Source: a virus
Lineage: Duplodnaviria; Caudoviricetes
Strand: one strand, 5' to 3'
Length of the DNA: 55,286 bases
Virus record (IMG/VR): IMGVR_UViG_3300027896_000052
Location: 1-55,286 of that record
Shown in pieces: positions 1 through 55,286 of this stretch. The translations under genes and the position numbers were made by a program. A model generated the notes under the pieces. The model did not search any database, was not told where the DNA came from, and saw only the letters and a program-made list of their open reading frames with translations. Each line of letters opens with the position of its first letter. The first letter of the stretch is position 1.

Positions 1-100
1 CTTGTCGGCCGAAACCCTCCGTAAGCGGAGCGAGGGCTCAAAGGCTATGTGGAAACGAAAGAAGGGGAGGGACTCCGATGGTCGCCCTTAAAAAGCCCGT
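1..100 (+). repeat. Left anchor, identical to 53735-53834
   Basis: 100/100 nt identity by direct comparison; first mismatch at 101 (c) vs 53835 (t). Confidence 0.95.
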
Positions 101-302
101 CCGGCGGATCATCCAAGTTCTCCACAGGCCGGCCGTGATCGTCCTCGACCCGGAGATCTCAAGCGTCCGGCTCCGGGCCAAAGGTTCCCGGACCGAGTAT
201 CTTCTCCATTTCGACGCCCTGTTCCGGCTGGCCATGGTGGCCACGGAGCGGTCCGAAAAGCCGATCCGCCGTAGGCGGCGGTCAACGGTTGTCTTCTCTT
301 GA
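78..302 (+). CDS. Small basic hypothetical protein, allele A
   Basis: Homolog of 53812-54030 (~80% aa identity with many synonymous changes); GGAGGG RBS. Confidence 0.75.
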   Translation: MVALKKPVRRIIQVLHRPAVIVLDPEISSVRLRAKGSRTEYLLHFDALFRLAMVATERSEKPIRRRRRSTVVFS

Positions 303-329
303 TCCCCTCCCGCGCCTGCTAAAAACAGG

Positions 330-379
330 AAAAAGCCCGTTTTCGGGGTCTGAAAAAGGCCCCGGAGCGGGCTTTTTTT
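330..379. terminator. Bidirectional intrinsic terminator between convergent operons (allele A)
   Basis: AAAAAGCCCGTTTTCGGGGTC-loop-GGCCCCGGAGCGGGCTTTTTTT, with A/T tracts on both sides. Confidence 0.75.
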
Positions 380-656
380 ATGCCTCAAAATCGCGTCCAC
401 GTCTGTTTACGGCCAATTTCCGGGTTTTGGCTAGGCGTGTTCGACCCCCTATTGAAAATCGCCCACAATTGATCCCTAGCGTTTTTTTAAATTTCGCTCT
501 AGGAAGCCCTAGGATCGACCGGCTTCCCCCTACCCTGTGGGGGTGGTCGACGCCGCCCGCGCCAGCCCCATGGCGGTGCCATCCCGCTTAACGGCTGGGG
601 GTAAAATCACCAGATCACGGACTAGCTGCCTGGGCCAGCTCAAAACCGGCCTGGCC

Positions 657-830
657 TTAGCCGGGGCCGAGTTGGTTGACCGGGTTGATCGTGAAATATT
701 CCCATTGGGCCTGGACCAGCGGCGGGATCGGCGGCGGGTGCGGGCCCGGACATGAAGCCGCCGCAAAAATGAGGATGAGCGCCAGCGCGTACAGGGCGCC
801 GGTCAGGCGGATCCGGTGAGTGCTATTCAT
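657..830 (-). CDS. 57-aa putative lipoprotein (not in ORF track): MNSTHRIRLTGALYALALILIFAAASCPGPHPPPIPPLVQAQWEYFTINPVNQLGPG
   Basis: Translated by hand; ATG overlaps the upstream stop (TGATG); n-region, hydrophobic core, AAS-C lipobox-like site, Pro linker. Confidence 0.65.
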   Translation of the reverse strand: MNSTHRIRLTGALYALALILIFAAASCPGPHPPPIPPLVQAQWEYFTINPVNQLGPG

Positions 831-1507
831 CAGCCGGGCCCGAAAGATCGGATGATCTTGAAAAATTCGTAGGCGACATTACAAGCGGGACAGGCGGCGT
901 AGGTCTGAAGATAAAGGCCAGTAATCATGTTATATGGAGATCCACCGCTAAGGCCGCTATTCGTGAGAGTGGCCGCAACCGTCCAAGTCGTGCCATTGGT
1001 TGAATAAGAAAAGACGGCTTTGATCGTGTTGCTCGAATCCCACCCCAAAGAAATCTTTAACCAGATGGGAAGAGTCGCGACCGCCACCGAGCCGTTTATA
1101 CTCCCGCCTAAATTCTGCCAATAAAGGCTGTGAGCCGCGCCCGAGTATTGATGCCCAAACCTTATAGCGGAATCGCTCTGAGCATTGGTTATATATCGGC
1201 CTATAAAAAGCCCGCCGAAGCTCGGGTCCGCATTAGCGAACGTCGCAATTTTCGTGATGATTTCACACGGGAATCCAGGGACGCCGATGATCGCCCTGAG
1301 CGCGTTGTTCGTCCCGTTGCTCCACCAGTCCATATTCGTGCCGTTGTTCGAATCCATGGTCAGAAGGCCATTCGCTTCTGTGATCCGTCTTGCCGCATCC
1401 GTGTTCCAATCCCACCAGGCCCAATGTCGTGAAGCGTCGTTAAATTCATCAATAAATTGGACCTTGTCTTCGGTCACCGCCCCGCCGCCGCCCGGAATAT
1501 AAGTCAT
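830..1507 (-). CDS. Tail-tip / receptor-binding protein, allele A (beta-sandwich, lectin-like)
   Basis: Last gene of the tail module; W/G/N/S/T-rich beta composition; start MTYIPG at 1507 after an AGGGGG RBS matches allele B MTFIPG; ends GPG. Confidence 0.6.
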   Translation of the reverse strand: MTYIPGGGGAVTEDKVQFIDEFNDASRHWAWWDWNTDAARRITEANGLLTMDSNNGTNMDWWSNGTNNALRAIIGVPGFPCEIITKIATFANADPSFGGLFIGRYITNAQSDSAIRFGHQYSGAAHSLYWQNLGGSINGSVAVATLPIWLKISLGWDSSNTIKAVFSYSTNGTTWTVAATLTNSGLSGGSPYNMITGLYLQTYAACPACNVAYEFFKIIRSFGPG

Positions 1508-1520
1508 GACGTTCCCCCCT

Positions 1521-2042
1521 TTAGAGGATGTACCAGGCACCGGCCGCGCCGTCCTGGATCGTTATATTGACCCATTGAGCTGCGATGATGTAGCTCGCAG
1601 CCCCGTCGATCGTTTCGGCCCCGTTCGGGGTCAGGGTGACCGTGAAGGCGGAGGCATCGATTTTCTTGACGTTCAAGATCCGCCCGGTCCCCGTCGCCGC
1701 CGGCAGGCTGACCACCATCGCCCCGCCGACCGCGTTGCAGAGAATTGTGTAATCCGTCGCCGCGGCTGCATAGGGCGAGTCGGCCACGGCCTTTGTCACG
1801 GCCTTCAGGGAAATCCCGGAAAACTTCGGGCTGACATCGCTCGAGCGCGTCGCCTGGAGGACTTCCTCCTCGACCGCGGCGCCTTGATGCATGAGTTTAT
1901 CCGTCCCGGTCCGGCTCATGAGTTCCCCGGCCACGACGTCGGCGGGCGCCGCTGCTCCCCGCCAATTATCTTTGATTTTATTTAAGGTGACATAATCGAC
2001 CCTTTCACCACTTATCGCATCGGCTCCGGTGCTGAGAGGCAT
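1521..2042 (-). CDS. Tail fibre / RBP adaptor protein
   Basis: Position after the large tail protein; typical 'SLPAA...LNVKKID...ETIDG...WYIL' fibre module. Confidence 0.6.
   Translation of the reverse strand: MPLSTGADAISGERVDYVTLNKIKDNWRGAAAPADVVAGELMSRTGTDKLMHQGAAVEEEVLQATRSSDVSPKFSGISLKAVTKAVADSPYAAAATDYTILCNAVGGAMVVSLPAATGTGRILNVKKIDASAFTVTLTPNGAETIDGAASYIIAAQWVNITIQDGAAGAWYIL
1547..1673 (+). repeat. Right anchor, identical to 55160-55286
   Basis: 127/127 nt identity up to the window end. Confidence 0.95.
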
Positions 2043-25699: not shown

Positions 25700-26284
25700 T
25701 CAGAGCCCGACCGCTTTTTTCAGCTTCGGGATGTCGGCGCCTCGGATCCAACCCGCGAGGTTTCCCCACAGCCAATGAAATCCGAATCCGCCATGAAGCA
25801 TCTCGTCGACGGCCTGCTCCTTCGTCCAGTTTTCGAAGACGATCCTGAACAGGGCGACCGACCAGCCCGTCCGGTCCGAGCCGTGCTGGCAATGGATGAG
25901 AACCGGGCCCGGGGCTATCTTGATTGCTTTCAGTACTGCGACGGCGTCCTCGAATTCGGGGTGCCAGGTGTGGGCGGGGATGTATGTCTCTTCGATCCCC
26001 TTGGGCAATAGGGCTTTATCGGGGTGCCCGGCATAGAGGTTGATATCCGTCGTTATGCCCAACTCCACGAGGCCCTTGGAGAAGCCCTCCGCCAGCGGTA
26101 GTGCCGATCGATAGACGGTCCATCGCGCGGGCGGCGCCGAAACCCGAAAAAGGTTCGGCAGGCCGGCGACCGTCATCGACTGTGCCCAGGTGCCCGGGCG
26201 ATCGACGATCGGTACGGGGACCGCGATCGCACAGGAAGAAAATAATAGGCCGACCAAGACGATCCAAAGAATCTTTTTGATCAT
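25700..26284 (-). CDS. Exported (lipoprotein-like) Cx5R tyrosine/dual-specificity phosphatase
   Basis: HCQHGSDRTG P-loop; N-terminal MIKK-hydrophobic-FSSC; GAGGAGG RBS. Confidence 0.85.
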   Translation of the reverse strand: MIKKILWIVLVGLLFSSCAIAVPVPIVDRPGTWAQSMTVAGLPNLFRVSAPPARWTVYRSALPLAEGFSKGLVELGITTDINLYAGHPDKALLPKGIEETYIPAHTWHPEFEDAVAVLKAIKIAPGPVLIHCQHGSDRTGWSVALFRIVFENWTKEQAVDEMLHGGFGFHWLWGNLAGWIRGADIPKLKKAVGL

Positions 26285-44568: not shown

Positions 44569-45942
44569 TCACTTGGGCCCCCCGGCGTCCGGATACTTCC
44601 TCCGGATCTCGGCTCCCCAGAGAGTCGTAGCGATCAGGGCGTAGACGTCGAGGCTTTCGGGGAGAATCTGGTCCGGGGCCTCGCCATCGGAGATCTCGCC
44701 GGGCAGGAATTCGATGTGATCCAGCCGGCGCTGGGAATACTGCGGCGTCCCGTACTTCGCCCACCAGGCCGTGATCAGCTTGAGGCGTTCCGCGGGCGTT
44801 GCCTGGCACCTGGGGTATTTCGTGCAGTAGCCCTTCTTGCCTTCGACCCGGACCGTGGCGCCGTCATCGGAATAGCCATAGGCCCGGATGTCGCTCCCGA
44901 AGGCCGGATCGAATTCCTCGACGAGGGCCTGCCAATGGACCTGCATGACGGCGTCCCGGATCCCGAAGATCTTGGAGACATCGGGCGAAAGCCCACCATG
45001 GATCCAATGCCCGGTATTCGGGGCCGCGGAGAACGGCGTCGGGAGGTAGCTGGCCAGATGGAGCTTTTCTCCCAGAGGAATGACGACTCCTCGGACCCAG
45101 GCTTCCATGTTCGGACCCATGGCGTCGTTCGGATACATGAGTTCGTTTCCGATCCCGATCCGATGCCCGCCGGAAGCGGGGAGGAGCTTCATGATCCGGT
45201 CCGCCCATTGGAAGAAATATCCCCTCGCCCGGTCGCTCGAGTCGTAAATGCCGTTCACGCTGTTCACGTTCTTGGCCCAGGGCGAGTTCGCGGCGTCGCA
45301 GTTGTCGAAGAGGTCGAAATGGATCCGGACATGGTAGGGCATCAAGACGTCTCTGAGCCGCTCGATGGCCAGGTCGAAGGCCGGATTCGGAACGTCCAAG
45401 TTGAAGGACGAGGGGTCCCTGGTGTACGGCGCCGTCGTCGTGAGGATGGCCTGATAGGCGGGGTCGTCCCAGCACATCATGATCCGGACGTAATCGATGC
45501 CGGCCAGGGAGATCTTCTGGGCGAAGTTCTCGAGTTGCTTATCCGAATAATGGTGGAGGAGAACGTGGCCCGAAAGCCAGGCGACCGTCATTCGGGGCAT
45601 CCAGTCGGGCTTCGGCGTGTCGGCCGGATAGGTCTTCGCGCAGGTAGTGCATTGAGTCGTCGGCTCCTCCCCGACCTTGAAAGTTCCCATGATCTTCTGC
45701 AGACAGAAGGGGCCTGGGAGTAGACCGCTGACCCGGCAGACCTCGACTTCGACGACCTGGCCGGGATCCGTCTTGTGAAGCTCGCAGAGCGGCGGGTCGA
45801 CCCAGACGTAATACTGGCGGGTGATCTTGGTCGGGCACCAGGGCCGGGCGGCCTGACCGCTATCGGCGCAGACCGTGACCTTGTGCGTCTGGCAGCAGAT
45901 CCCGAGTTTTTCGCAGAGCCATTTCTTCGTGCTGTTTTTCAT
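44569..45942 (-). CDS. Cys-repeat plus TIM-barrel glycoside hydrolase-like protein
   Basis: Two 'VCxxSG...C' repeats; 'GIDYVRI', 'DLFDN', 'GNEL'. Confidence 0.55.
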   Translation of the reverse strand: MKNSTKKWLCEKLGICCQTHKVTVCADSGQAARPWCPTKITRQYYVWVDPPLCELHKTDPGQVVEVEVCRVSGLLPGPFCLQKIMGTFKVGEEPTTQCTTCAKTYPADTPKPDWMPRMTVAWLSGHVLLHHYSDKQLENFAQKISLAGIDYVRIMMCWDDPAYQAILTTTAPYTRDPSSFNLDVPNPAFDLAIERLRDVLMPYHVRIHFDLFDNCDAANSPWAKNVNSVNGIYDSSDRARGYFFQWADRIMKLLPASGGHRIGIGNELMYPNDAMGPNMEAWVRGVVIPLGEKLHLASYLPTPFSAAPNTGHWIHGGLSPDVSKIFGIRDAVMQVHWQALVEEFDPAFGSDIRAYGYSDDGATVRVEGKKGYCTKYPRCQATPAERLKLITAWWAKYGTPQYSQRRLDHIEFLPGEISDGEAPDQILPESLDVYALIATTLWGAEIRRKYPDAGGPK

Positions 45943-46134
45943 GATATTCTCCTTATTTTCCTCGGTCCTCTTTCCCGTCATAAAAAAGGCTGATTCCTAA
46001 TTCTCCTTCGACCCGATGTTTGTACTTTTTGGCGTGAATCTTTGCTATTGCCTGGGCGTTTTTATAACTATATGTTTCCCATCCGCAATCTTGGCACCTC
46101 ATGATCGCGTGAACGACCCCATAGCCGTATTTCA

Positions 46135-53132: not shown

Positions 53133-53825
53133 ATGGTATACTCATCCCAGATGAAAAGCATCAGCGTCTATGGTCTTTATTCCACAGAACAGGGGACGTC
53201 TGTCGTCCGCTATGTCGGGCAGACGAAATATCCCTTAAACCAGCGGCGGAATGCTCATGTCAAACGGTCCCTGGGAAAAGCGGCCATTACTCATCTGCAT
53301 CGCTGGGTCCGGGATGTCTATTCGCGAGGCTTCGAGGTCAAGGCGATCCTCTTGAAATCCGGGGCTCATTGGAATTCGGATGAAATTGAATTTATTAGAA
53401 AATTCCGAGCGATGGGGATGGCCCTCACGAATTCCACGGACGGAGGGGAGGGGTGCTTGAATCCATGCCCGGAAATGAGGTCCAAAATCAGCGGATCATT
53501 AAAGGGAAAGCCCCTCCCCTTGAAGACCCGGCAGAAGATGAGTGAGGCTCACAAGGGGAAGGCCCGGTCCCGTGCGATATGCCGAAAAATTAGCAAGGGT
53601 TTGAAGGGCAATAAAAATGCCCTTGGCCGGGTATGCTCCCAGGAAACGATCCGAAAATTGAGCGAGGCCCACAAGCGGGAAAACCTGTCGGCCGAAACCC
53701 GCCGCAAGAATAGCGAATCACATAGAAGGGAAAACTTGTCGGCCGAAACCCTCCGTAAGCGGAGCGAGGGCTCAAAGGCTATGTGGAAACGAAAGAAGGG
53801 GAGGGACTCCGATGGTCGCCCTTAA
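53133..53825 (+). mobile_element. Free-standing GIY-YIG homing endonuclease with NUMOD3 repeats
   Basis: 'VYGL...RYVGQT', 'E..FI', 'LTN.TDGGEG'; repeated 'SxETRRKxSExH' units. Confidence 0.85.
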
Positions 53826-54030
53826 AAAGCCCGTTCGGCGGATCATCCGAGTTCTCCATCGGCCGGCTGTCATCGTCCTCGACCCCGAAATTTCGAGCAT
53901 CCGTATCCGGTCGAAAGGTTCCCGGCGCGAGTACCGCCTCCATTTCGACCTCGTTTTCCGGCTGGCCATGGAGGCTACGGAGCGGTCCGAAAAGCCGGCC
54001 CGGAAGCTGAGGCGGTCCGTCCTCAAATGA
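53812..54030 (+). CDS. Small basic hypothetical protein, allele B
   Basis: Homolog of 78-302. Confidence 0.75.
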   Translation: MVALKKPVRRIIRVLHRPAVIVLDPEISSIRIRSKGSRREYRLHFDLVFRLAMEATERSEKPARKLRRSVLK

Positions 54031-54155
54031 TCCCTTCCCCGGGGCTGGGGCCGATGGCGGTTCCCGGCCCCGGCCGGCCGTAAACGGCCGCGGCCGATGT
54101 CTTCCCTGCCCTGCAGGGGGCCTCCCCCCATTCACAACGAAAATCAAAAGTCAAG

Positions 54156-54204
54156 AAAAAGCCCGTTTTTTGGGTAAAATAAACCTCAAAACCGGGCTTT
54201 TTTT
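54156..54204. terminator. Bidirectional terminator (allele B)
   Basis: AAAAAGCCCG...CGGGCTTTTTTT, same outer stem as 330-379. Confidence 0.7.
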
Positions 54205-54482
54205 ATGCCTCTAAATCCGCACACAATCGCCTACGTTCGATTTTTCGGGCTGCGGCTAGGGTCGGTTGTGGGCGGTCCGGATCGTCCGCCACGATCGTTC
54301 CCCTGCGTTTTCCTAAAAATCGCGCTAGGAGCCCCTACAATCGATCGGAGGCTGGATCAGCGTATCCCTGGTCTAGCCCCCGCCGACCGGCTCAAACGCG
54401 GGGGCAGCCCTTGCTAGGGCTGGGTTGAAAATAGGGGGGTCCGTGAATAGCCGCCCGGGTCAGATCAAAACCGGGCTTTTCG

Positions 54483-55121
54483 TCATCCGGGGCCGAGTTG
54501 GTTGACCGGGTTGATCGTGAAATATTCCCATTCCGCTTGAACCACGGGCTGATTATACCAATTTGCGATGAAGAGTCCGACGCAGAGAGGCCCGATCGCA
54601 GTTGCCAGCGTCCTGGTATAAAACGAGGTCCAGCTCGTTCCATTCGTCGAATAATAGAAAATCCAGAGAGCCCCGAGATGGCTTCCCATGCAGCGAATTT
54701 TGAACCATTTCGGAACCGTTGCCTGGATCGTCGGCCCGGCGTAGAGCCCGCCATTCCCTTCGGTCCGGATTACGTCATCGGAGGCGTCATTGACCTGGTC
54801 GAAGAAGACGTCGTGGACCGAGGCTCCGCCGGCCTGGCCATCCGGGCCAATATAAAGCCCGCTCATGGTCCGGGGCCCTTTATTGAACGAATAGAGCTTG
54901 GCTTCGATGTCGCAGGGCATGAAGGGCAAGGGCATCGTTACCCGCGGCCGGTAATCTGAGCAGTCCTGACCGGCCTTCCCTTCGAAGACGAGTCGGCCGC
55001 CGGCCGGCGCCGCTGTCTTGTCCGAGCCGGATGTCCCCAAGGTCAGCCAGGGGTCCACCAGGGCCGCATTGAAATTATCGGTGAAAACCGGGAAGCCGCT
55101 TGCTCCGGGAATAAATGTCAT
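54483..55121 (-). CDS. Tail-tip / receptor-binding protein, allele B
   Basis: Same position as 830-1507; shares MT(F/Y)IPG, 'YSTNGT.WT' and terminal GPG, otherwise highly diverged. Confidence 0.65.
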   Translation of the reverse strand: MTFIPGASGFPVFTDNFNAALVDPWLTLGTSGSDKTAAPAGGRLVFEGKAGQDCSDYRPRVTMPLPFMPCDIEAKLYSFNKGPRTMSGLYIGPDGQAGGASVHDVFFDQVNDASDDVIRTEGNGGLYAGPTIQATVPKWFKIRCMGSHLGALWIFYYSTNGTSWTSFYTRTLATAIGPLCVGLFIANWYNQPVVQAEWEYFTINPVNQLGPG

Positions 55122-55133
55122 GGTGCCCTCCGC

Positions 55134-55286
55134 TCAGATGATATACCAGGTCCCGGCGCCGCCGTCCTGGATCGTTATATTGACCCATTGAGCTGCGATG
55201 ATGTAGCTCGCAGCCCCGTCGATCGTTTCGGCCCCGTTCGGGGTCAGGGTGACCGTGAAGGCGGAGGCATCGATTTTCTTGACGTT
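55134..55286 (-). CDS. 3' end of the tail fibre/adaptor gene, allele B (partial)
   Basis: Ends QDGGAGTWYII vs QDGAAGAWYIL in 1521-2042. Confidence 0.85.
   Translation of the reverse strand, partial: NVKKIDASAFTVTLTPNGAETIDGAASYIIAAQWVNITIQDGGAGTWYII

What the first reader, a model, noticed from the sequence alone, without database searches (positions are those of the whole stretch)
657..830. Hidden lipoprotein that carries the C-terminal strand of the other allele's tail-tip protein
Seen: a 57-aa ORF missed by the ORF track is coupled (TGATG) to the allele-A tail-tip gene. It has a signal peptide with an AAS-C lipobox-like site, a PGPHPPPIPP stalk, then LVQAQWEYFTINPVNQLGPG, nearly identical to the C-terminus of allele-B protein 54483-55121 (VVQAEWEYFTINPVNQLGPG). 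Allele B has no such ORF. Established: small lipoproteins encoded next to RBP genes (T5 Llp, Cor of phi80/T1-like phages) block receptors. Inference: either a membrane-displayed mimic/decoy that interferes with a sibling phage's RBP or its assembly, or a chimera left when the A cassette replaced most of a B-type gene.
Basis: partly seen in the sequence, partly recalled or inferred. Interest (0 to 1): 0.8.

Follow-up and report, generated by a model that had tools for sequence, protein, structure and literature searches.

The report
Recombination scar posing as small lipoprotein
The 57-codon reading frame is real, but it is a leftover made when the start of a much longer lipoprotein enzyme gene was joined to the tail end of an older tail-tip gene during a swap of the phage's host-recognition cassette, so it is most likely a scar and not a purpose-built gene.

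Summary
ORF 657-830 (-) exists and overlaps the stop of the A-type tail-tip gene by TGATG. It has a lipoprotein-type N-terminus and ends like the B-type protein.

Both halves are fragments of longer genes. Codons 1 to about 37 are the 5' end of a 416-425-aa lipoprotein gene. That gene directly follows the tail-tip gene in both related prophages of one Candidatus Aminicenantes MAG. The DNA is 103/124 identical to one of them, shared TGATG included. The full protein models as a GH5-like TIM barrel, and the ORF keeps none of it. The last 20 codons equal the end of a B'-type tail-tip protein.

Contigs of relatives of the two parent types overlap on the window only at 710-723, a 14-nt microhomology. 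The ORF and the A allele occur in one record and one sample. There the A haplotype is about one third of the population.

Verdict: an in-frame scar of illegitimate or short-homology recombination. It may still be translated and lipidated, but no evidence points to a decoy role. Interest is low to moderate.

The parts
657..830 (-). Chimeric 57-codon ORF (ORF57): lipoprotein 5' stub fused in frame to the 3' relic of a tail-tip gene
   Evidence: ORF and TGATG overlap. (its two halves match different longer proteins).
724..830 (-). 5' stub of a 416-425-aa lipoprotein gene: signal peptide, lipobox Cys27, Pro-rich linker
   Evidence: 81% aa identity over residues 1-27 to P0003. 103/124 nt identical to L007 9986-10115, including the last codons of the tail-tip gene and TGATG. 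RNA-library contigs of run X5 match 710-780 and then run on as a full-length lipoprotein.
710..723 (-). Junction: a 14-nt stretch shared by relatives of both parent types (reads P-L-V-Q in both)
   Evidence: B'-type contigs of X2 and X3 fit 593-723 and then run on into a B-type gene. Lipoprotein-type contigs of X5 fit 710-780 and then run on into the lipoprotein gene (reverse complement and translation).
657..709 (-). 3' relic of a B'-type tail-tip gene (last strand of the beta-sandwich, GPG, stop)
   Evidence: The last 20 aa (21 with the preceding Pro) are identical to the C-termini of P0004, P0008, P0002 and P0006. 56/62 nt identical to the window's B allele.
661..706 (.). 46-nt block identical in the A locus and the B allele (54487-54532); a shared node of the assembly graph
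   Evidence: alignment; record 4, 46 nt, depth 41.7.
830..1507 (-). A-type tail-tip (receptor-binding) protein gene, 225 aa from ATG 1507 (236 aa from GTG 1540)
   Evidence: The public gene call is 225 aa (P0009). 28% aa identity to B in alignment A3, same family, ends ..EFFKI..GPG.
54483..55121 (-). B-type tail-tip protein gene, 212 aa, ConA-like beta-sandwich
   Evidence: Model pLDDT 77.7, last strand at residues 194-205. Foldseek TMq 0.66-0.70 to most GH43 beta-xylosidase chains; my reading is that the match falls on their C-terminal ConA-like domain.
1521..2042 (-). 173-aa protein upstream of the tail-tip gene ('adaptor'); left homology arm of the cassette
   Evidence: 77-79% aa identity to the prophage homologues. 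1553-1673 is identical to 55166-55286.
1..1673 (.). A-haplotype copy of the region that the record holds twice (B-haplotype copy at 53735-55286)

Best explanation
ORF57 is an in-frame junction scar. It is not a dedicated gene.

In this phage group the tail module ends with a 173-aa protein gene, then a ConA-like tail-tip (receptor-binding) gene. In the prophage relatives, a gene for a 416-425-aa lipoprotein with a GH5-like TIM barrel comes next. It overlaps or nearly abuts the tail-tip gene's stop.

An A-type tail-tip gene, arriving with the start of its downstream lipoprotein gene, replaced most of a resident B'-type tail-tip gene. On the left the exchange ran through homology in the 173-aa gene and the start of the tail-tip gene. 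On the right it resolved at a 14-nt stretch (reading P-L-V-Q) that the lipoprotein linker and the B'-type 3' end happen to share in the same codon phase.

What remains is the lipoprotein's start context (TGATG), signal peptide, lipobox Cys and Pro-rich linker, fused to the last 20 codons of the B'-type gene.

Shown: the descent of both halves, the position of the junction, the loss of the whole enzymatic part, and the rarity of the ORF.

Inferred: the order of events and the recombination mechanism. Also inferred: the stub is probably still translated by coupling and could be exported and lipidated as a 31-residue lipopeptide without a selected function.
For: (1) N-terminal half. P0003 (425 aa) begins almost as ORF57 does and then continues for about 390 more residues. 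tblastn gives 81% identity over residues 1-27. The DNA is 103/124 identical to L007, including GPG-TGATG.

(2) P0003 lies directly behind a B-like tail-tip gene in a prophage of a Candidatus Aminicenantes MAG (L007). The second prophage of the same MAG has the same order with a 416-aa homologue, 78-79% identical (L009). That is 2 of 2 prophage relatives examined. Their tail proteins are 67-79% identical to the window's.

(3) C-terminal half. It is identical to the end of B'-type proteins P0004 and P0008, which sit on 8 and 19 contigs of up to 55 kb.

(4) Junction. Contigs of relatives of the two parent types overlap on the window only at 710-723.

(5) Nothing else of the lipoprotein gene is left at either end of the window. 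In the P0003 model (pLDDT 92.6), the TIM barrel spans roughly residues 95-425 and has GH5 matches. In the family alignment, N250 and E251 are nearly invariant.

(6) Rarity. ORF57 forms a cluster of 1 member on 1 contig among about 15 billion proteins. The A protein likewise. 1 of 5 listed runs holds the locus, and that run is the probable source. Scans of viral and metagenome contigs found no second copy.

(7) The same kind of relic exists elsewhere at this locus. L007 carries a decayed 3' end of another lipoprotein allele (43-45% aa identity, 2 in-frame stops) right behind the intact gene. P0002 (45 aa) is another short ORF that keeps 37 residues of a B-type end behind an unrelated start.
Against: The frame is open, with an intact start context, signal peptide and lipobox. 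The product could therefore be made, and a gain of function cannot be excluded. In-frame fusion has a prior of only about one in three, unless the shared stretch sets the phase, as it does here.

The donor itself, an A-type gene followed by a full-length lipoprotein gene, was not found. 12 distant A-like metagenome loci were examined. None of the 12 has a lipoprotein-family or 173-aa-protein match in the flanks held.

The contigs used to place the junction are relatives (90-99% alike), not the true parents. The 14 nt is therefore an estimate.

There are no expression data for this locus. The only RNA-library contigs belong to a relative with the full-length gene.
Confidence: 0.85

Rival explanations
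1. ORF57 is a functional mini-lipoprotein. It is exported and lipidated, and it displays the conserved terminal strand of B-type tail-tip proteins at the membrane. There it disturbs folding, assembly or adsorption of sibling B-type phages, or blocks their receptor. This would be a superinfection-exclusion role like T5 Llp or Cor.
For: The reading frame, the TGATG coupling and the lipobox are intact. The host clade of the related prophages has Lgt and LspA. A-type and B-type phages coexist in one sample. The position next to the receptor-binding gene is the one known for Llp (PMC9586334, seen as search listing and start of abstract only).
Against: It is seen in one record only. Both halves are inherited fragments. 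The 20-residue tail is mostly one strand (194-205) of a beta-sandwich and is unlikely to fold alone. The A protein has its own equivalent strand, so nothing needs complementing. No Pfam or PHROG family matches.
Confidence: 0.07
2. The junction is an assembly artefact: a chimeric contig joining a full-length lipoprotein gene of one phage to the B-type gene end of another.
For: The record is visibly assembled through a strain bubble and holds the region twice. A 46-nt node shared by both haplotypes lies inside the ORF.
Against: An independent Logan unitig of 900 nt at even depth 16.1 runs from 677 to 1576 across the junction at 710-723 without a difference. The stretch shared by the parent types is 14 nt. 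I recall Logan's unitig word size as 31 (the tool text speaks of 31-letter words), so 14 nt would be too short to cause a false join. No piece of the rest of the lipoprotein gene is in the record. The unitig comes from the same run as the record, so it tests the assembler and not the sample.
Confidence: 0.03
3. ORF57 is an outer-membrane spanin-like lysis lipoprotein (small and proline-rich, like lambda Rz1; the comparison is recalled).
For: It is small, with a lipobox and a Pro-rich mature N-terminus.
Against: It lies at the end of the tail module, coupled to a ConA-like tail-tip gene, and not in or beside an inner-membrane spanin gene. Its Pro-rich part is the linker of a 425-aa enzyme family, in which several N-termini show C-P-x-P linkers.
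Confidence: 0.02

Closest known systems
Mosaic junctions of phage genomes made by illegitimate or relaxed (short, diverged homology) recombination
   Same: A cassette with one arm in good homology and the other resolved at a very short shared stretch, leaving a fused reading frame and a displaced gene end. The literature was seen only as search listing and start of abstract: PMC2327257 (lambda Red and diverged sequences) and PMC3945230 (Rad52-like recombinases).
   Different: Here relatives of both parent types can be named, and the junction is placed to 14 nt in an uncultured phage population in which both haplotypes coexist. No recombinase was looked for in this window.
T5 Llp and Cor-type superinfection-exclusion lipoproteins encoded beside the receptor-binding gene
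   Same: A small lipoprotein-type ORF next to the receptor-binding gene (PMC9586334, listing and start of abstract only).
   Different: No sequence family match. It is not conserved. It was built from two gene fragments. No receptor-binding fold is expected from a 31-residue mature peptide.
Displaced 'orphan' 3' ends behind polymorphic toxin genes (Rhs, CdiA-CT); recalled, not looked up here
   Same: A newly arrived variable end displaces the old one, which stays downstream as a relic.
   Different: There the orphans often keep a working immunity gene. Here the relic is 20 codons fused to another stub.
The P0003 family: lipoproteins of about 340-490 aa with Cys-rich modules and a GH5-like TIM barrel
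   Same: ORF57 shares its first 37 or so residues and the start context with them.
   Different: ORF57 lacks the Cys-rich module (residues 38-80 of P0003) and the whole barrel.

Membership tests
Llp/Cor-type exclusion lipoproteins | Type II (lipoprotein) signal peptide | tested here: met
   Passes a recalled PROSITE-style lipobox rule, which 5 of 463 window ORFs pass. The N-terminus is homologous to that of a lipoprotein family. SignalP was not available.
Llp/Cor-type exclusion lipoproteins | Encoded beside the receptor-binding protein gene | tested here: met
   TGATG overlap with the A-type tail-tip gene.
Llp/Cor-type exclusion lipoproteins | Sequence relationship to a known exclusion-lipoprotein family | tested here: not met
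   0 Pfam and 0 PHROG families at E up to 0.1.
Llp/Cor-type exclusion lipoproteins | Kept as an intact gene in related phages | tested here: not met
   1 member on 1 contig. No copy in viral or metagenome contigs. The B haplotype lacks it.
Llp/Cor-type exclusion lipoproteins | Binds or blocks the phage receptor | not testable with these tools
   The receptor is unknown and the host is uncultured.
P0003 family (lipoprotein with GH5-like TIM barrel) | Signal peptide, Cys and Pro-rich linker at the N-terminus | tested here: met
P0003 family (lipoprotein with GH5-like TIM barrel) | Cys-rich C-x-x-S-G-x-L-P...C-P module and a TIM barrel with a nearly invariant N-E pair | tested here: not met
   Only residues 1 to about 37 are present. 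tblastn finds no further piece at the window ends. Barrel and N250/E251.
ConA-like tail-tip proteins of this phage group (A and B types) | Complete beta-sandwich of about 210-225 residues ending ..E-[YF]-F..G-P-G | tested here: not met
   ORF57 holds only the last strand and GPG.
Outer-membrane spanins (Rz1-like) | Lies within or next to an inner-membrane spanin gene in a lysis cassette | tested here: not met
   The neighbours are the tail-tip gene and a non-coding stretch. The surrounding module is tail.

The most novel reading that the evidence does not exclude
The stub is still translated by coupling, exported and lipidated. The resulting 31-residue lipopeptide carries the conserved terminal strand of B-type tail-tip proteins. 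It gives A-type phages an edge over the coexisting B-type majority by disturbing their tail-tip folding or assembly in co-infected cells, or their adsorption. A recombination scar would then have been turned at once into a weapon between sibling phages.
Probability: 0.05. Interest if true: 0.7.

Novelty: new member of a known kind. Interest (0 to 1): 0.3.

Why it matters
It shows how a convincing small lipoprotein gene can arise by accident. The ORF has coupled translation, a signal peptide, a lipobox and a suggestive C-terminus, yet it came from a cassette swap. This is a useful warning for annotating small ORFs next to receptor-binding genes.

It also gives a finely mapped example of host-range cassette exchange in an uncultured phage, probably of Aminicenantes, with both haplotypes present in one sample.

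It points as well to an unnamed family of lipoprotein enzymes with a GH5-like fold that sit behind the tail-tip gene in related prophages. That family may merit its own study.

Tried and rejected
Searches that led nowhere:
- Viral-contig scans with the 173-aa protein gave 3 distant loci with a different gene order.
- The A protein gave 1 weak locus.
- The B protein gave none.
- ORF57 gave none: 40 stretches matched a pattern and none was confirmed.
- The metagenome scan with ORF57 matched 593 stretches and confirmed none.
- The second metagenome scan, with an alignment of A-type proteins, gave 12 loci at 29-42% identity. None of the 12 has a lipoprotein-family or 173-aa-protein match, so the donor stays unknown.
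- Pfam and PHROGs gave nothing for ORF57, A, P0003 or the window's 470-aa paralogue.
- blastn of the two non-coding stretches downstream of the alleles against L007 and L009 found nothing.
- No tRNA genes were found.

Class-wide search with P0003: 32 of 339 genomes matched at E up to 0.001. Only G001 holds full-length copies. Most other matches cover the Cys-rich module, often within frames of about 750-1100 aa; three cover part of the barrel (query about 177-381) and one is a short C-terminal piece.

Sequencing runs: X2, X3, X4 and X5 hold only a 0.05 share of the words. When laid, X2, X3 and X5 proved to be relatives that cover 593-723 or 710-780 only. They say nothing about habitat or about expression of ORF57. 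The parts of the locus they do not cover are not evidence of anything.

Considered and rejected:
- A conserved DNA element in the 46-nt block. L009 shows ordinary synonymous divergence there.
- A spanin (see the rival explanations).

Not run:
- Complex prediction of the ORF57 peptide with the B protein or the 173-aa protein. I do not claim binding, and the tool asks for jobs only in that case.
- SignalP, which was not on hand.
- Supplements of papers, which are closed and were not needed.
- The look-up of encoding contigs, which is stated closed and was not called. For that reason the 55150-nt and 53363-nt contigs that hold B'-type proteins could not be read.

Full report
WHAT IS THERE. The window is a whole IMG/VR virus record of 55,286 bases. 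It is a tailed phage with portal, terminase and tape-measure genes. Its two ends overlap: 1-263 matches 53735-53997 at 90%, 326-718 matches 54152-54544 at 68%, and 1491-1673 matches 55105-55286 at 91% (alignment). Between the conserved arms lie two different tail-tip genes. Type A is 830-1540 on the minus strand, 225 aa from the ATG at 1507 as in the public gene call P0009. Type B is 54483-55121 on the minus strand, 212 aa.

The record is therefore a genome of about 53.7 kb assembled a little more than once round, with the variable region taken once from each of two co-occurring strains. Logan's independent unitigs of the probable source run show exactly that bubble. The A-specific pieces are 71-690 at depth 12.7 and 677-1576 at depth 16.1. 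The B-specific piece has depth 26.8. A 46-nt shared node at 661-706 has depth 41.7, and the shared flanks have 40.9 and 43.6. The A haplotype is thus roughly one third of the population.

THE OBSERVATION. ORF 657-830 (minus strand, 57 aa) is real. Its ATG overlaps the A gene's TGA as TGATG. Its N-terminus passes a lipobox rule that I recalled from PROSITE; 5 of 463 six-frame ORFs of 40 aa or more in the window also pass it. Its last 20 residues match the end of the B protein at 18/20, and the DNA is 56/62 identical. The B end of the record has no counterpart of the N-terminal part.

WHERE THE TWO HALVES COME FROM. A search of 5.8 billion protein clusters found ORF57 only as itself, with 1 member on 1 contig. 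Among longer proteins it found two informative hits out of 38 candidates.

The first hit, P0003 (425 aa), begins almost exactly as ORF57 does. It has the same basic n-region, the same hydrophobic core, a Cys at position 27 and the same Pro-rich stretch. It then continues after P-P-L-V for about 390 more residues. P0003 lies on a contig of a Candidatus Aminicenantes MAG (L007), inside a prophage. The gene order there is tape measure, 255 aa, 901 aa, 174 aa, a B-like tail-tip gene of 217 aa, and then P0003, which starts on the same TGATG overlap. The second prophage in the same MAG (L009) has a 173-aa gene, a B-type tail-tip gene of 213 aa and, 4 nt later, a 416-aa homologue of P0003 that is 78-79% identical. 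The window's 311-aa, 906-aa and 173-aa proteins are 67-79% identical to these prophage proteins. The phages are therefore related, and the host is probably an Aminicenantes bacterium. At the DNA level, the end of the A gene plus ORF57 codons 1-37 is 103/124 identical to L007.

The second hit, P0004, and its cluster mate P0008 are 212-aa B'-type tail-tip proteins, found on 8 and 19 contigs of up to 55 kb. They end in the very 21 residues that end ORF57. ORF57 is therefore the start of one gene fused to the end of another.

THE JUNCTION. When contigs of other runs were laid on the window, two pond-metagenome contigs fitted 593-723 and then ran on into a B-type gene (reading G-L-F-I-G-N-W-Y-N). 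Contigs from a wetland RNA library fitted 710-780 and then ran on as E-V-C-R-V-S-G-I-L, which is the continuation of the full-length lipoprotein. The two parent types thus overlap on the window only at 710-723. These 14 nt read P-L-V-Q in the same phase in both, which explains why the fusion is in frame. These contigs are relatives, not the real parents, so the 14 nt is an estimate. The RNA library shows at most that a relative's full-length gene is present in it. It does not show that ORF57 is expressed.

WHAT WAS LOST. With an alignment of 29 family members, P0003 gives a model of pLDDT 92.6. The model has an N-terminal helix (the signal peptide), a small Cys-rich beta module at residues 38-80, and a (beta/alpha) barrel from about residue 95 to the end. 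Foldseek places the barrel nearest GH5 mannanases and endoglucanases, with E from 6e-7 and TMq 0.40-0.50, a moderate match. N250 and E251 are nearly invariant in the family, which fits the N-E acid/base pair of clan GH-A enzymes (that pair is recalled). The family has 117 representatives at E up to 0.001. 8 of the 31 N-termini that I printed pass the lipobox rule. Several more show a hydrophobic stretch followed by C-P-x-P. ORF57 keeps nothing beyond the linker, and tblastn finds no further piece of the gene at either end of the window. The window does hold a distant paralogue without a signal peptide, 470 aa at 44569-45981 (28% identity, E 1e-6).

THE C-TERMINAL TAIL. The B protein models as an all-beta sandwich (pLDDT 77.7) whose last strand is residues 194-205. 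Foldseek matches GH43 beta-xylosidase chains, most at TMq 0.66-0.70. My reading is that the match falls on their C-terminal ConA-like domain, and one A-type relative carries Pfam PF17851. The A protein belongs to the same family, with 28% aa identity to B in the alignment, and has its own terminal strand and G-P-G end. The 20 residues in ORF57 are thus mostly a single sandwich strand, and nothing in the A haplotype lacks that strand.

A RECURRENT PATTERN. Right behind the intact P0003 gene, L007 carries 165 nt that still read as the last 53-55 residues of another lipoprotein allele, at 43-45% aa identity with two in-frame stops. P0002 (45 aa) is a further short ORF that keeps 37 residues of a B-type end behind an unrelated start. 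Cassette replacement that leaves the old 3' end behind therefore seems usual at this locus.

RARITY. The A protein and ORF57 occur once each in the protein collection. Only 1 of 5 listed runs holds the locus, and that run may be the source. Scans of viral and metagenome contigs found no second copy. The predicted donor, an A-type gene followed by a full-length lipoprotein gene, was not found: none of 12 distant A-like loci has such a neighbour.

HOW IT MOST LIKELY WORKS. It probably does nothing selected. The start context is the parent's, so the stub is probably translated by termination-reinitiation. The prophages' host MAG has Lgt and LspA, so a 31-residue lipopeptide could be made. I put 0.85 on a neutral scar, expressed or not. 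I put 0.07 on an acquired role, 0.03 on an assembly artefact and 0.02 on a spanin-like role.

The artefact reading is weak for two reasons. A 900-nt unitig of even depth crosses the junction. The shared stretch of 14 nt is also far shorter than the 31-letter word size that I recall for Logan's unitigs.

COMPARISON AND NOVELTY. This is a new, well-resolved example of a known kind, a mosaic junction in a phage genome. It works like the junctions ascribed to illegitimate or relaxed homologous recombination (PMC2327257 and PMC3945230, seen as listing and start of abstract only). It resembles Llp or Cor only in position and in being lipoprotein-like (PMC9586334, listing and start of abstract only). 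It fails the tests of family relationship and of conservation.

Noticed in passing
window 1-1673 and 53735-55286: The record holds one region twice, once per strain haplotype, so the true genome is about 53.7 kb and probably circular or terminally redundant, although it is classed as linear. The haplotypes differ across 71-1546, not only in the tail-tip gene: the non-coding stretch 326-656 is only about 68% identical to its counterpart.
   Followed up: partly
window 53133-53825 (+): A GIY-YIG/NUMOD3 homing-endonuclease-like gene (PHROG homing endonuclease, E 1.4e-9) ends about 100 nt before the point where the two haplotypes start to diverge. Cleavage and co-conversion of flanking DNA could help drive exchange of this region. 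This was not tested.
   Followed up: no
L007 10001-11278 and L009 2153-3403: A family of 416-425-aa lipoproteins with a Cys-rich module and a confidently modelled GH5-like TIM barrel, with no Pfam or PHROG match, sits directly behind the tail-tip gene in both prophages of one Aminicenantes MAG. 117 representatives exist in the 1.84-billion-protein library. It may be a lysogen surface-polysaccharide enzyme.
   Followed up: partly
L007 11285-11449: A decayed 3' end of another lipoprotein allele (two in-frame stops) lies immediately behind the intact gene. It is a second relic of cassette replacement at this locus.
   Followed up: yes
window 44569-45981 (-): A 470-aa protein without a signal peptide carries two C-x-x-S-G...C-P modules and a domain distantly like the P0003 barrel (28% identity, E 1e-6). 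It could be the phage's own cell-envelope glycosidase.
   Followed up: partly
window 326-400: A GC-rich inverted repeat flanked by A and T runs, between the converging gene 78-302 (+) and the tail operon (-), looks like a two-way terminator and is conserved in both haplotypes. Seen by eye and not scanned.
   Followed up: no
window 25700-26284 (-): A 194-aa ORF with a textbook lipoprotein signal (Cys18) inside the head-gene region; no PHROG match.
   Followed up: no
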